A stretch of 64,000 nt of DNA, from assembly GCA_030765685.1 (NCBI GenBank), contig JAVCCB010000050.1:11735-75734 (forward strand), read 5' to 3'. This stretch comes from Candidatus Tantalella remota (GTDB lineage Bacteria; Omnitrophota; Gorgyraeia; Tantalellales; Tantalellaceae). A program made the position numbers. Below are positions 45,001 through 48,000 of this stretch, in pieces (position 1 is the stretch's first letter; every line of letters begins with the position of its first letter).

Positions 45001-48000
45001 GGGTAAAGATACCTTTATCGAATGGGGGGCAAATAGAATATATCCAAACTTTTACTTGCTTGTTATCGGGGAGTCAGGAATAAGTCGGAAATCAACCGCT
45101 ATCGGCGAAGCTGAAAAACTGCTACATAGGATAAATCCAGACTATAAAATGTATGACTCGTTTAGTACTGAGGCATTGCTGGAAGCACTTGAAATTAATC
45201 CTACGAGGTTTATATTCTTTGATGAGTTCAAACAGCTTACGGATTTAGAAGGAAAGTCTTATGGGAAGGGACTCATCTCATTTTTAACGCGAGCGTGGGC
45301 TTGTCCTGAAAACATATCCGTAGGATTCAAGAACATTCCGGTAGAAAAACGAAACATTACAGGGATATATCTGACACTCTTAAGTGCAACAACGATGGAT
45401 TGGTTCGCCATCAATAAATCAGATATAACAGGGGGGTTCCTTGGGAGATTTTTGCCTATCCTGTCTGGTGGAGAAAAACGACTTATCCCCAGACCACCAA
45501 GAAAAAATGAATTAAAAATTAATGGTTTTGTTAAAACCTTGGCTGAGCTCTCTGTGCTTTCTGGGGAGGTAACAATGTCTGATGATGCAGGACATTATTA
45601 TGATCACATTTATTGTGAAGACCGAAAGGAATTGAATCAGTTTTCTGATGGGGAGCTTTTGAAACCATTTTTTTCACGATTAGGTGCAAATATATTAAAA
45701 ATGGCGATGGTATTCCAGCTTGTTAAAGATGGGAGTTTTTGTATAAATAAAGACACGATGGTTGAAGCTGTGACTTGTTTGCATTATATAAAGGAGTGCT
45801 ATGTAGATTTGGTTGTGAATAAAGTAGTCTTTAGCAAGGAAATGGGTCTCGAAAAAAAGATTATTGAGATTGTGAAAAAAGATCCGGGTATAAAACACCG
45901 AGAACTCGCGCCCCGACTGCATACGCCAGCAAAGGAGTATAGACCAGCAATAGAAAGTCTTATTGATAAGGGTTTTTTAAGGTACGAAGAAGATAAGGGA
46001 TATTATTGCGGATTAGCAAATGTTAGCTGAATATTAGCACATGGTGATAACACTGTAAGTTCTTTATGTATAGATATATATATGAAAAAACATATATATG
46101 TTAGCAAGTTAGCTTAAATGGAAGCATTTTGTCAGTAGAACCTTCACCTTAAGGCAAAATCTGGGGCTGGGGCGAGCATAGCTGATAACAATGATAACAT
46201 TCGAAAAAGATGATTTAACTTATATCCTGTGAAGGAGTTAGAAGTTAGCAGTTAACACAAAAATCAGATAACAATTATCGATTAAGTAAAGTGGATAGGG
46301 ACCAAAGTGAGATTTTTTGGAAAGAACGGCAATAATTAAGGGCGGTGGGATGTGAGTAATAAAAACAAGATGACGCCACTGAAAGCAATTAGAGCGTATT
46401 GTAAACAATGCGCAGGAAGGCCGAAGGAAGTGAGGCTATGTCAGGTAGAGGAGTGCCCACTATTCGAGTACAAAATGGGGAAAAACTTTGCCCGAAAGGG
46501 TGTAGGACCTGGCAGAGTAATAAAAAAAACGATTTCTAACGATAAAAAGAACGACTCAGCAAAGGATTTCATGCACAAGAATGATTATGAGGGTAGACAC
46601 ATGGCTTATACGACTTTGCCAGTTAGAGGGGCAATTAAAGAGCAATTACCGATAGGGAGCATCAGGGTGATAAAGAAGGGAAAAATAGACATTGAAGAGG
46701 TAGGGGACGGAGTGGTCATAAAGATTACCAATGACAAGACAGGAGAATAAAGTGATCGAGTATAAACAATTGCTAGACGAGGAGTAAATGCTATGACGGT
46801 AGAATACGAACCAATCTATGTAAAGAAGCACCCAGGTATTCCAATCCCTCCGGTACCGAATACGGGGCAGATAAGACACTTAAAAGATTTAGGTCCGTTA
46901 AGGCGGCTCAGGTATTCTAATGAACCAGATTTTATAAACCCGGAGAAGGTACAAAAGCCGGGCACAGTTTTAGTAGATGAGCTAGAGTATTACATTGATA
47001 AGTATAGATCTACAGGAGACATATATAGCATACATTCAACAATGAGAGTACTTAGTAGATTGATCTTGAGAATGCTACAGCAAGAGATAAGAAGGTATAA
47101 AACATTAAATCAGGGTGATATTCCAGACTTGTATAATGCATCCTATGTTTGCTTGCATCAAGCAATGAAAGCATTTGATATATCTAAATCATCCCTCCAC
47201 AGTTTTCCTAGATTTTTGCAAGGCTATATCAAGAAGGAAGTAGGGAGAAAAGTTAGGTGGGAAGTACGGCATATATCTAGTGGTTTGACAGGAGAAATAA
47301 TGTGTCCGGAGGAGGCAGCTGGGGTAGCAACGTATAGAGAGCAAAGTGCTATTATGAAGAAGATTGATGTACAAGATGCAATGAGAGAGTTAGTAGAAGA
47401 AGGAAAAGTAAAAGAAGAGAGTATGACAATGTTTAAGCTGAAGTATCTGAGGAACTATACATACCAAGAAATAGCAGATATGTTTTGTTATTCGCATACA
47501 TTAGCAAGAGAGAGAATAAGAGCAGTAGTAAGGCTTATGAAGGTTAAATTAGCAAAATATGGTTCAGAATGACAGAAAAAAACAAAAATAATTATTTTAT
47601 TCTCCCCAGTTTTATCATCTTAGAGTTATTTATACAACATGGGAGAACATGATTTCAGAAAAAACCGTAATTTTGTTTTAACTTTCAAGGAGCTGATTTA
47701 AGGGTTGTTTAGGAAGAAATGTTAAAAAAAGTGATGTAAATGTTCAGGAGGATAAGAAAACCCAAAAATAATTATTATATCCTCCCCACTTTTTCCGTTT
47801 CAGAGTTATTTATACATTATGGGAGAACATAATAAACACAAAGAACTGTAATTTTAATCTGGCATTTTGAAGTAGTGCATTTATGAGTATTCGAAGGAAA
47901 TTAAGGAGGTTTTTATGGAACAGAGTATTGGGCAGTTGATAAATATGATTGAAGTTATATTCATAACTTCACAGTACAGAGGCGATCTTTTCAATGTTTT

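What the first reader, a model, noticed from the sequence alone, without database searches (positions are those of the whole stretch)
46793..47915. Island-encoded sigma-70-family factor followed by twin ~105-bp direct repeats
The 259-aa product has recognisable sigma region 2 and region 4 HTH blocks. The 340-bp spacer after it holds two ~80%-identical repeats, each containing ctcccc, agagttatttataca and atgggagaacat, just upstream of a five-gene cargo operon (47915-50658). These may be cognate promoters for the island sigma factor or two small RNA / micropeptide genes. Each has an ATGGGAGAACAT-initiated mini-ORF of 20 and 10 codons.
Basis: inference. Interest (0 to 1): 0.55.

Follow-up and report, generated by a model that had tools for sequence, protein, structure and literature searches.

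The report
Phage-type sigma factor with duplicated promoter
A mobile island inserted next to the tmRNA gene of an uncultured Omnitrophota bacterium carries a divergent sigma factor followed by two tandem copies of a promoter-like element that, in the closest related sequence, sits directly in front of a phage portal gene, so it is most likely a phage late-gene switch reused by the island.

Summary
ORF 46793-47572 encodes a very divergent sigma-70-family protein. It has no Pfam hit, but profile searches and the predicted fold match sigma factors over both the sigma2 and sigma4 domains. The 342-bp spacer after it is a tandem duplication of the whole intergenic unit (period 180 bp, about 80% identity over the first 115 nt).

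Each unit contains a promoter-shaped element: an AT-rich stretch, CCCCA[C/G]TTTT, 11 variable nt, then GTTATTTATA. I found 11 such elements in 9 independent loci. All lie on the coding strand, and the first copy at each locus lies 20-55 nt after the stop codon of a sigma homologue. No further copy occurs anywhere else in the window or the fetched loci.

The upstream block changes between sigma clades. The 10-mer stays the same in 9 of the 11 copies (T replaces G at its first base in the L002/L008 clade). In the closest relative (65% identical sigma) the element directly precedes a T4-type portal gene.

There is no conserved RNA structure, no Rfam match and no conserved mini-ORF.

Best reading: a phage late sigma factor plus its late promoter, kept by a tmRNA-integrated island that carries defence genes, with the promoter duplicated here. 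Transcription from the element has not been shown. This is a new member of a known kind and of moderate interest.

The parts
43028..43409 (+). tmRNA gene (ssrA); the island begins just downstream of it
   Evidence: Rfam RF00023 scores 167 bits. GC content drops from about 48% to about 38% after about 43000. The related island L001 also starts right after a tmRNA 3' end.
46352..46750 (+). 132-aa protein with an N-terminal CxxC..C..C motif, conserved in the same module as the sigma gene
   Evidence: tblastn finds homologues in L001, L002, L005, L007, L009, L010 and L014. No Pfam, PDB or PADLOC match.
46793..47572 (+). Divergent sigma-70-family factor (sigma2 about residues 62-160, sigma4 about residues 180-254, conserved but unmodelled N-terminal extension 1-60)
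   Evidence: TIGR02937 E 1.5e-6 over residues 88-249. phrog_1740 sigma factor E 7e-5. Family profiles hit SigH, SigF, SigB, SigW, FliA and RpoD in the PDB. AF2 model has pLDDT 70, and all top 50 Foldseek hits are sigma factors.
47562..47741 (+). Repeat unit 1: a copy of the whole sigma-to-operon intergenic region, starting 11 nt inside the sigma ORF
47579..47603 (+). AT-rich stretch upstream of element 1 (UP-element-like; AAAATAATTATTTTAT shared with unit 2 and L009 copy 1)
   Evidence: Register table. The UP-element role is inferred.
47604..47613 (+). Element 1, block A (CCCCAGTTTT): proposed -35 region
   Evidence: The block is conserved within a sigma clade and differs between clades.
47625..47634 (+). 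Element 1, block B (GTTATTTATA): proposed -10 region. The inferred start site is about 47632-47645.
   Evidence: The 10-mer is identical in 9 of 11 instances; L002 and L008 have TTTATTTATA. PWM score 38.7 bits, against 13.9 bits or less for any other site in the window.
47665..47674 (+). Element 1, block C (CCGTAATTTT): conserved leader motif
47731..47739 (+). Decayed copy of the downstream gene's ribosome-binding site and start codon in unit 1 (GTGATGTAA: start codon followed at once by a stop)
   Evidence: Pairwise alignment of the two units; read from the sequence.
47742..47921 (+). Repeat unit 2, running into the start of the first operon gene
47784..47793 (+). Element 2, block A (CCCCACTTTT): proposed -35 region, identical to L001 and to the phage-type locus L004
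47805..47814 (+). Element 2, block B (GTTATTTATA): proposed -10 region. The inferred start site is about 47812-47825.
   Evidence: 37.0 bits
47846..47868 (+). Element 2, blocks C and D (CTGTAATTTT..CTGGCATTTT): homologous to the 5'UTR and ribosome-binding region of the portal gene in L004, L011 and L066
47915..50658 (+). Five co-oriented genes downstream (78, 175, 226 [M28-peptidase-like], 134 and 254 aa). Co-oriented genes continue without a predicted terminator to at least 52903.
   Evidence: ORFs. Pfam Peptidase_M28 E 3.9e-12. L001 and L009 homologues. No + strand terminator is predicted between 47573 and 52000.

Best explanation
ORF 46793-47572 encodes an alternative sigma factor of phage origin. 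It has the two-domain sigma2-sigma4 layout typical of ECF sigma factors.

The two repeats are tandem copies of its target promoter together with the 5' leader that follows. Each copy is laid out as: an AT-rich upstream stretch; a -35-like block CCCCA[C/G]TTTT; an 11-nt variable spacer; a -10-like block GTTATTTATA; and a conserved leader (TAATTTT..TGGCA..SD-like).

Proposed sequence of events (all steps inferred):
1. Host RNA polymerase carrying the housekeeping sigma transcribes the left module of the island (cold-shock-domain protein, primase, helicase, zinc-finger protein, sigma).
2. The island sigma then binds core polymerase.
3. It starts transcription at about 47632-47645 and about 47812-47825, reading into the operon at 47915 and possibly further along the co-oriented genes.

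In phage relatives the same cassette switches on the late structural genes, beginning with the portal gene. In this island the structural genes have been replaced.

The twin arrangement comes from tandem duplication of the entire intergenic region. Copy number varies between relatives (1 or 2), so two copies are not essential.

What is shown: the sequence anatomy, the homology, the conservation and the genomic context. What is inferred: that the element is a promoter, that this sigma recognises it, and where transcription starts.
For: Sigma identity.

The element follows the sigma gene wherever sequence is available.
- 11 instances in 9 independent loci, all on the coding strand.
- The first copy at each locus lies 20-55 nt after the sigma stop codon.
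- A position-weight-matrix scan gives 26-39 bits for these sites and 14 bits or less for everything else in the 64-kb window and the loci scanned.

The geometry is fixed while the flanks diverge. The spacer between blocks A and B is always 11 nt and its sequence is not conserved. An AT-rich stretch always lies upstream.

Block A tracks the sigma clade, and the sigma4 recognition helix differs between the same clades:
- CCCCA[CG]TTTT in the window, L001 and L004
- GGCGAGTTTT and CGCTCCTTTT in L009
- nACGGA[TC]TTT in L005 and L007
- GAGGAGTTTT in L002 and L008

Block B and the sigma2 motif SFPR[FY]LQGYI stay the same across these clades.

The host's own promoters are canonical, for example TTGACG-17-TATAAT at the tRNA gene. 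The element has no TTGACA-like -35, so it is not an ordinary housekeeping promoter.

Genomic context. In L004, whose sigma is the closest relative (65% identity), the element lies directly upstream of a T4-type portal homologue. In L011-L013 and L066 a more distant sigma also sits between the replication genes and the portal gene.

RNA-level readings fail: no consensus structure, folding z-scores between -0.3 and +1.2, and no Rfam match.
Against: - No transcription data exist, so the start sites and the dependence on this sigma are inferred.
- The island contains no further copies of the motif. The proposed regulon is therefore one locus, which is weak as a regulon argument.
- The -10 frame is ambiguous. 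GTT, TATTTA and TATAyA frames all fit, and the last of these is sigma70-like, so a host sigma with an activator is not excluded.
- The more distant phage clade (L011, L065, L066) has a canonical-looking TTGACA-16-TATATA promoter after its sigma gene instead of this element.
- The match between block A and the sigma4 helix rests on only four or five clades and could be drift.
- The same 10-mer also occurs in the spacer of a host tRNA promoter (42258-42267, minus strand).
- Single-sequence sigma scores are below the curated cutoffs.
Confidence: 0.62

Rival explanations
1. The element is a promoter, but it is read by the host housekeeping sigma. The 259-aa protein would then be either an accessory activator that binds block A (RinA/ArpU-like logic) or irrelevant to this promoter.
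For: The 3' part of block B reads TATACA, TATACT, TATAGT or TATAAT, which resembles a sigma70 -10 hexamer placed 17 nt downstream of A[CG]TTTT. The distant phage clade has a canonical TTGACA-16-TATATA promoter at the equivalent place. Weak hits to generic transcriptional-regulator and Q-like PHROGs fall in the C-terminal HTH.
Against: None of the 11 instances has a TTGACA-like -35, although the host's own promoters are canonical. The protein has a sigma2-like core-binding domain as well as an HTH, and every top fold match is a sigma factor. There is no NCBIfam hit to the RinA/ArpU families at E<=0.1.
Confidence: 0.17
2. The repeats are DNA sites with a function other than promoting transcription: a packaging (pac/cos) signal shared with a helper phage, a recombination site for the island's serine recombinases, or origin iterons.
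For: The element lies directly upstream of the portal gene in L004, near where packaging signals are often found. It sits after the replication module. The invariant 10-mer is longer than a typical -10 element. The island encodes two resolvase-family proteins.
Against: The fixed two-block geometry, with a variable spacer, an upstream block that changes by clade and a strict orientation relative to the downstream genes, is promoter-like. Most relatives have a single copy. A better origin candidate (GTTAGC/GATAACA repeats plus an AT-rich palindrome) lies at 46000-46280, next to the helicase gene. There is no inverted-repeat core of the kind resolvase sites have.
Confidence: 0.06
3. Each repeat is a small gene: a structured small RNA, or a (possibly leaderless) micropeptide starting at ATGGGAGAACAT.
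For: Mini-ORFs of 20 and 10 codons are present. If the -10 is TATTTA, the start site would fall near the A of the ATG, which would fit a leaderless mRNA. In L005 and L007 the element is followed after about 100 nt by a strong intrinsic terminator, which would give a short transcript there.
Against: The ORFs are not conserved: GTG plus 3 codons in L001, none in L004 or L009. They have no Shine-Dalgarno sequence. RNAalifold predicts zero pairs across 9 instances. The window copies fold no better than shuffled sequence. No terminator follows either copy in the window. Rfam finds nothing at E<=1.
Confidence: 0.04
4. It is a lambda-Q-like antitermination cassette. The protein would load onto polymerase at the promoter next to its own gene and let it read through downstream terminators.
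For: The gene order (regulator, then an adjacent promoter, then a short leader) resembles Q, P_R' and 6S RNA. Terminators follow the leader in L005 and L007, and L007 has several more before the next gene. phrog_79 'anti-termination protein Q-like' scores E 0.0024.
Against: The Q-like hit covers only the HTH (residues 192-251). Only 1 of 54 family members matches Pfam Phage_antitermQ. All fold matches are sigma factors. The window has no terminator between the element and the operon.
Confidence: 0.04

Closest known systems
Phage-encoded alternative sigma factors that switch on middle or late genes (phiEco32 gp36, SPO1 gp28 and gp33/34, T4 gp55; PBSX Xpf)
   Same: A sigma-70-family protein carried by a mobile element is encoded between the early/replication genes and the late genes. 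It is proposed to redirect host core polymerase to a short promoter motif specific to the element. For phiEco32, the middle and late promoters share AATGTA centred at -11.5, presumably read by gp36 (PMC12276001). In relatives L004, L011 and L066 the gene immediately precedes the portal gene.
   Different: There is no detectable sequence relationship to those proteins beyond the sigma family. No match was found in 50,697 GenBank phage records. Here the cassette sits in an island that has no structural genes in the 20 kb available. The motif has two blocks (A plus B). Only one or two copies are seen per locus. The details for SPO1, T4 and PBSX come from my own knowledge and were not checked here.
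ECF (group 4) sigma factors, e.g. E. coli sigmaE, B. subtilis SigW, M. tuberculosis SigH
   Same: Two-domain sigma2-linker-sigma4 layout. Best NCBIfam hit is TIGR02937 sigma70-ECF. Fold matches include 1or7, 5wuq and 6kon. The promoter shape, a G/C-rich -35 ending in A[C/G] followed by a T-tract, recalls GGAAC-TTT (own knowledge).
   Different: It scores below the curated cutoff. It has a 60-residue conserved N-terminal extension. No anti-sigma gene is recognisable. The -10 block is A/T-rich rather than CGT-like. It is not autoregulated, because the element lies downstream of the gene rather than upstream.
RinA/ArpU/LtrC late-operon activators of Gram-positive temperate phages
   Same: The regulator gene lies immediately upstream of the late promoter it controls, just before the packaging and structural genes. 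RinA binds a promoter region upstream of terS (PMC3152322 abstract).
   Different: No NCBIfam hit to those families. This protein has a sigma2 domain, so it is expected to replace sigma rather than assist it.
P2 Ogr / P4 Delta reciprocal transactivation between a helper phage and its satellite
   Same: The island promoters (window, L001) and the late promoter of the phage-type locus L004 share identical core blocks (TTCCCCACTTTT in L001 and L004, CCCCA[C/G]TTTT in the window copies; GTTATTTATA in all) and near-identical sigma4 recognition helices. Either sigma could therefore plausibly fire the other's promoter.
   Different: This is purely an inference from sequence. The regulators here are sigma factors, not zinc-finger activators. 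No helper-satellite relationship has been shown. The P2/P4 facts come from my own knowledge.

Membership tests
Sigma-70 family | sigma2 domain (core-binding and -10-recognition regions) | tested here: met
   TIGR02937 alignment spans residues 88-249. The family-only profile A3 matches SigH 3mzy over profile positions 63-209, SigF 1l0o over positions 46-101 and RpoD region 2. Profile A2 matches 8x6g_H (SigB) at E 3e-11 from the N-terminus. Foldseek top 50 hits are all sigma factors. Caveat: no Pfam Sigma70_r2 hit for the protein itself.
Sigma-70 family | sigma4 helix-turn-helix domain (-35 recognition) | tested here: met
   Residues about 190-252 match PHROG sigma and regulator families and the sigma4 domains of SigR, RpoE and sigmaE in the PDB. 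23 of 54 family representatives hit Pfam Sigma70_r4_2. pLDDT in this region is 79-93.
Sigma-70 family | Score above the curated family thresholds | tested here: not met
   Pfam: no family at E<=0.01. TIGR02937 scores 28 bits against a cutoff of 42.9. Membership therefore rests on profile-level and fold-level evidence.
Sigma-70 family | Binds core RNA polymerase and confers promoter-specific initiation | not testable with these tools
   Needs biochemistry or in vivo reporters.
ECF (group 4) sigma factors | Only sigma2 and sigma4, no sigma3 or sigma1.1 | tested here: met
   The AF2 model has helical blocks at 62-162 and 178-254 joined by a low-confidence linker. The N-terminal residues 1-60 are unstructured.
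ECF (group 4) sigma factors | Cognate anti-sigma factor co-encoded, and an autoregulated promoter upstream of the gene's own operon | tested here: not met
   No anti-sigma domain was found in the neighbouring genes. No element lies upstream of the sigma gene. The conserved 132-aa zinc-finger neighbour has unknown function.
Phage late-gene sigma factor plus late-promoter cassette | The gene lies between the replication genes and the late structural genes, with the promoter in front of the first late gene | tested here: inconclusive
   Met in relatives: L004 (element, then portal), and L011-L013 and L066 (sigma, then portal). Not met in the window itself, where the downstream genes are non-structural.
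Phage late-gene sigma factor plus late-promoter cassette | The same promoter motif repeated in front of several late operons | not testable with these tools
   The phage-type contigs are only 1.7-8 kb long. Within the available sequence only 1-2 copies occur per locus.
RinA/ArpU late activators | Sequence membership (TIGR01636/TIGR01637-type models) | tested here: not met
   The NCBIfam scan at E<=0.1 returns only sigma models.
Structured non-coding RNA or riboswitch | Conserved secondary structure with covariation, or a match to a known family | tested here: not met
   Rfam finds nothing at the gathering threshold or at E<=1. RNAalifold predicts 0 pairs. Folding z-scores are -0.3 to +1.2.
Micropeptide genes | ORF conserved in relatives and preceded by a ribosome-binding site | tested here: not met
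   The ORFs are absent or truncated in L001, L004 and L009. No Shine-Dalgarno sequence lies upstream.

The most novel reading that the evidence does not exclude
The island could be a phage-derived satellite or defence island wired into the late switch of a related phage. Its tandem promoters carry the same -35 and -10 blocks as the portal promoter of the phage-type locus L004, and its sigma has a near-identical recognition helix. Infection by such a phage would therefore turn on the island's operon, and possibly its recombinases and defence genes. Conversely, the island's sigma could mis-time the phage's late genes. This is the sigma-factor counterpart of the P2 Ogr / P4 Delta cross-activation.
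Probability: 0.2. Interest if true: 0.7.

Novelty: new member of a known kind. Interest (0 to 1): 0.42.

Why it matters
It defines a rare, unannotated sigma-factor family. Only about 10 clusters score E<1e-30 among 1.84 billion representative proteins. There is no Pfam hit and no relative in sequenced phages or plasmids.

The family comes with a candidate cognate promoter from phyla with no genetics (Omnitrophota, Planctomycetota). A sigma-promoter pair of this kind is a ready-made orthogonal expression module.

It also shows a phage late-gene switch surviving inside tmRNA-integrated islands that carry anti-phage systems (GmrSD and type I R-M here, BREX in L001). This raises a testable idea: some defence islands may be regulated by, or listen to, a phage sigma factor.

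Tried and rejected
1. Known RNA family or structured RNA: rejected. Rfam found nothing at the gathering threshold or in E-value mode. RNAalifold and single-sequence folding were negative.

2. Micropeptides: the ORFs are not conserved.

3. Sigma54 promoter at the TGGCA(C/T) block: there is no TTGC at the correct spacing in any instance (read).

4. An ECF-style second promoter, GGGAGAAC-N17-CGTAAT: the -35 part is not conserved in L001, L004 or L009, so I dropped it in favour of blocks A and B.

5. The TTTATTTATAG just before the first island gene (43618-43628) as another copy: it is the T-tail of a conserved terminator-like hairpin (43584-43615) and lies too close to the Shine-Dalgarno sequence to be a promoter in the same geometry.

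6. Minus-strand sigma70-like hits inside the repeats: they occur at the background rate and are not conserved in relatives.

7. Pattern scan of IMG/VR for TTTT-N11-GTTATTTATA-N28-45-TAATTTT: 50 hits, all in AT-rich genomes, none with a sigma relative, so they are chance matches.

8. Sigma search in IMG/VR, GenBank phages and PLSDB: no relatives.

9. PADLOC on the operon proteins: no hits.

10. The first AF2 run, with 6 sequences, was too poor to use (pLDDT 57).

11. Pairwise identities intended to decide whether the two copies are orthologous to the two L009 copies were uninformative, because the baseline identity in AT-rich sequence is high.

The 9-sequence version gave only 3 loci.
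Full report
**Setting**

The window comes from a metagenome-assembled genome named Candidatus Tantalella remota, phylum Omnitrophota; the 259-aa product is 100% identical to an NCBI protein from it. A tmRNA gene lies at 43028-43409. Immediately after it the GC content falls from about 48% to about 38% and stays low to the end of the window. From 43640 onwards every gene is on the + strand, in this order:
- a cold-shock-domain-like protein
- a RepB/PriCT primase
- a DUF3987 helicase-like protein
- a 132-aa zinc-finger protein
- the 259-aa ORF of the finding
- the 342-bp spacer
- a run of small genes, including an M28-peptidase-like protein
- a DnaJ-type zinc-finger protein
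- two resolvase-family recombinases
- GmrSD
- a type I restriction-modification system

The finding therefore sits inside an island integrated at ssrA.

**Observation**

The repeats are 47562-47653 vs 47742-47833 (80% over 92 nt) and 47656-47674 vs 47837-47855 (84%). Aligning 47556-47747 with 47736-47930 shows that the whole intergenic region is duplicated with a period of 180 bp. The duplicated stretch runs from 11 nt inside the 3' end of the ORF to the ribosome-binding site and start codon of the next gene. In unit 1 that site has decayed to GTGATGTAA. The quoted strings and the mini-ORFs of 20 and 10 codons are correct.

**Is the protein a sigma factor?**

Standard annotation would miss it. 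Pfam gives nothing at E<=0.01.

Weak single-sequence signals are consistent with a sigma factor:
- TIGR02937 sigma70-ECF: E 1.5e-6 over residues 88-249, 28 bits against a cutoff of 42.9
- PHROG 1740 'RNA polymerase sigma factor': E 7e-5

The family is rare. There are six clusters among 5.8 billion proteins. Ten clusters reach E<1e-30 among 1.84 billion representatives, and beyond these the family grades into ordinary small sigma factors. Of 54 representatives, 23 carry Pfam Sigma70_r4_2 and 3 carry Sigma70_r2.

Profile searches against solved structures agree:
- A profile of only the 15 closest members matches SigH (3mzy, E 1e-5) across both domains, SigF and RpoD in region 2, and FliA and RpoD in region 4.
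- The wider profile reaches 3e-11 against S. aureus SigB.

An AF2 model built from 12 sequences has pLDDT 70, and above 80 for residues 61-160 and 190-250. In a Foldseek search of the PDB, all of its top 50 matches are sigma factors.

I accept it as a divergent sigma-70-family protein with an ECF-like two-domain layout and a conserved 60-residue N-terminal extension that could not be modelled.

**What the repeats are**

I fetched every locus I could reach that encodes a relative. The same element follows the sigma gene in:
- L001 (sigma 63% identical)
- L004 (65%)
- L009 (52%)
- L005/L006 and L007 (about 42%; L005 is from a Planctomycetia MAG)
- L002/L003 and L008 (about 36%)

L010 has a weak variant.

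In an ungapped register the 11 instances share four features:
- an AT-rich stretch of about 20 nt
- a 10-nt block ending in a T-tract
- exactly 11 variable nucleotides
- GTTATTTATA (TTTATTTATA in L002 and L008)

At each locus the G of the first copy's 10-mer lies 20-55 nt after the sigma stop codon. A weight matrix built from these sites scores them at 26-39 bits. Nothing else in the window or the loci scanned exceeds 14 bits.

Further downstream there are two more conserved blocks: TAATTTT, and (C)TGGCA(C/T)TT followed by a Shine-Dalgarno-like sequence.

Copy number varies. There are two copies in the window, in L005 and in L009, and one copy in L001, L004, L007, L002 and L008. L007's single copy looks like the upstream half of L005 copy a joined to the downstream half of copy b. 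Copies are therefore probably gained and lost by unequal recombination.

**RNA or DNA?**

- RNAalifold on nine instances predicts no base pair at all.
- The window copies fold no better than shuffled sequence (z = +0.8, +0.6, -0.3, +1.2).
- Rfam finds nothing even at E<=1.
- The mini-ORFs are not conserved and have no Shine-Dalgarno sequence.

The conservation pattern is two short blocks at a fixed distance, a non-conserved spacer, an AT-rich upstream flank and a strict orientation. That is the pattern of a promoter.

It is not a housekeeping promoter. The host's own promoters in the window are canonical, for example TTGACG-17-TATAAT at the tRNA gene and TTGTTA-17-TATAAT before the ORF at 42386-41 that precedes the tmRNA gene. 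No instance of the element has a TTGACA-like -35.

**Link to the sigma**

First, the two are inseparable. They occur together across loci whose other genes differ widely. The genes downstream of the cassette are:
- in L005, a PIF1-like helicase and a protein with a partial nicotinamide-mononucleotide-transporter domain
- in L007, that same partial-domain protein and a SIMPL-family protein
- in L002, a MORN-repeat/DUF6745 protein
- in L001, the same backbone operon as in the window, with BREX genes further downstream as cargo

Second, the upstream block differs between sigma clades but is conserved within them. The sigma4 recognition helix changes across the same clades:

| Loci | Block A | sigma4 recognition helix |
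|---|---|---|
| window, L001, L004 | CCCCA[CG]TTTT | ..ARERIRAVV |
| L009 | GGCGAGTTTT / CGCTCCTTTT | ..VEHRIRKAK |
| L005, L007 | nACGGA[TC]TTT | ..ESSIRRI |
| L002, L008 | GAGGAGTTTT | ..VECRIRRM |

By contrast, the -10-like block and the sigma2 motif SFPR[FY]LQGYI are invariant. This is what co-evolution of sigma4 with the -35 element, and a fixed sigma2 with a fixed -10 element, would look like. With only four or five clades it is suggestive, not proof.

Third, the context in relatives. In L004, whose sigma is the closest, the gene that starts right after the element is 63% identical over 185 residues to the Portal_T4 protein of L011. In L011-L013 and L066 a more distant sigma (about 33% identical) sits between a primase-helicase and the same portal gene.

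The conserved TGGCAC..GGAG block is the region just upstream of the portal start codon in L004, L011 and L066.

The cassette is therefore, in origin, a phage late switch: replication genes, then the late sigma, then the late promoter and portal leader, then the structural genes.

**What happened in the window**

The island keeps the replication module and the switch, but non-structural genes follow.
- Three of the five 'cargo' genes have co-linear homologues in L001 at 53-84% identity.
- The genes after them (zinc-finger protein, resolvases) are 86-90% identical to L001.
- The sigma is only 63% identical to L001's, and the primases are of different types.

The islands are therefore mosaics, and the operon is backbone rather than cargo. 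The 78-aa first gene has its homologue in L009, not L001.

No terminator is predicted between the sigma gene, the two elements and the operon, or up to 52000. Read-through from upstream is thus possible, and the two promoters would add to it. A sigma70-like site (TAGAAA-17-TATAAT with an upstream TG) lies before GmrSD, so the defence genes may have their own promoter.

**Caveats**

- No transcript data are available.
- The exact -10 frame, and therefore the start site, is ambiguous.
- The more distant phage clade has a terminator hairpin overlapping a canonical-looking TTGACA-16-TATATA promoter at the equivalent position instead of this element. The element is therefore specific to the closer clades.
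- The 10-mer GTTATTTATA also occurs once in the spacer of the host tRNA promoter and once inside hsdR. I treat both as chance.

**Comparison with known systems**

In function, this resembles the phage-encoded sigma factors that switch on middle or late genes. One example is phiEco32 gp36, whose promoters share AATGTA at -11.5 (PMC12276001). SPO1 gp28 and gp34, T4 gp55 and PBSX Xpf are further examples, from my own knowledge.

In gene order, it resembles late activators such as RinA, which lie just upstream of the late promoter (PMC3152322).

It is not a member of the RinA/ArpU families and is not a Q-type antiterminator. It meets the structural definition of the sigma-70 family, though not the curated score thresholds.

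The kind of system is known. The family, the motif and the setting (Omnitrophota and Planctomycetota elements, and defence-carrying islands at ssrA) are new.

**Verdict**

Confidence in the best explanation is 0.62. Novelty: new member of a known kind. Interest: 0.42.

The most novel reading still open is cross-talk between the island and an L004-type phage through the shared late promoter (probability about 0.2).

Noticed in passing
window 43410-43640; L001 70-300: The island's left end, directly after the tmRNA gene, is highly conserved between the window and L001. This stretch of about 190 nt includes a 13-bp terminator-like hairpin (43584-43615) followed by a T-run, just before the first island gene. 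It probably contains the attachment site and the early promoter or terminator. No integrase lies at this end.
   Followed up: partly
window 46000-46280: The intergenic region between the helicase-like gene and the zinc-finger gene holds repeated GTTAGC / ATTAGCA / GATAACA motifs and an AT-rich palindrome (ATATATATG..CATATATAT). It is a candidate replication origin for the island.
   Followed up: partly
window 46352-46750: A 132-aa protein with an N-terminal CxxC-x9-C-x4-CPL motif has homologues near the sigma gene in seven other loci, and L001 has a second, paralogous copy at 4967-5305. It has no family match. It could be a co-factor or an anti-sigma factor.
   Followed up: partly
window 46793-46970 (sigma residues 1-60): A conserved N-terminal extension (IKHMKDLGPLRRLRYSN.PDFVNPE) is present in the island clades and the closest clades but absent from the distant phage-clade sigmas. 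AF2 does not model it.
   Followed up: no
window 48665-52903 vs L001 5394-9724: The M28-like protein, the 254-aa protein, the DnaJ-type zinc-finger protein and the resolvase genes are 84-90% identical in protein sequence to those of L001. The sigma is only 63% identical, and the primases are of unrelated types (RepB/PriCT plus DUF3987 here, Prim-Pol in L001). This indicates modular recombination between islands.
   Followed up: partly
window 55038-62572; L002 7912-13700: The type I R-M locus has two tandem paralogous HsdM genes (about 52% identical to each other), then HsdS, a 152-aa ORF and HsdR. The same arrangement occurs in L002 at 76-85% identity. GmrSD lies at 53025-54845. L001 carries BREX instead.
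   Followed up: no
L001 4620-4966; L009 1820-2160: A conserved non-coding region of about 350 nt lies between the element (or small ORF) and the operon. It is absent from the window. It has repeated AGGnATGCAAA motifs and two hairpins with compensatory changes (CTGTAC..GTACAG vs CTGTCC..GGACAG; CCTGTTAGT..ACTAACAGG vs CATGTTAGT..ACTAACATG). Rfam finds nothing there.
   Followed up: no
L005 3080-3205; L007 6738-7300: In these relatives the element is followed after about 100 nt by a strong intrinsic terminator (CCTTCGTC..GGCGAAGG TTTCTTT). L007 has three more terminator-like hairpins before the next gene. The transcript there would be a short RNA or an attenuated leader.
   Followed up: partly
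L001 4442-4615; L009 1456-1638: A conserved 57-60-aa ORF with a coiled-coil-like sequence follows the first element in L001 and L009 and is missing from the window. In L009 it lies between the two copies of the element.
   Followed up: no
window 42251-42281 (minus strand): The host tRNA promoter (TTGACG-17-TATAAT) contains the exact 10-mer GTTATTTATA in its spacer. This is probably chance, but it is the only intergenic occurrence outside the repeats.
   Followed up: partly
L002 5810-5840: Four tandem GGTGAAAA units lie immediately upstream of the ribosome-binding site of the gene that follows the sigma cassette.
   Followed up: no
L011 1965-5021: In the phage-type locus, the primase-helicase gene next to the sigma gene carries an intein (Pfam Intein_splicing).
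   Followed up: no
window 189-27655: The host part of the window encodes very long ORFs (1093, 3104, 3060 and 1521 aa) on the + strand.
   Followed up: no
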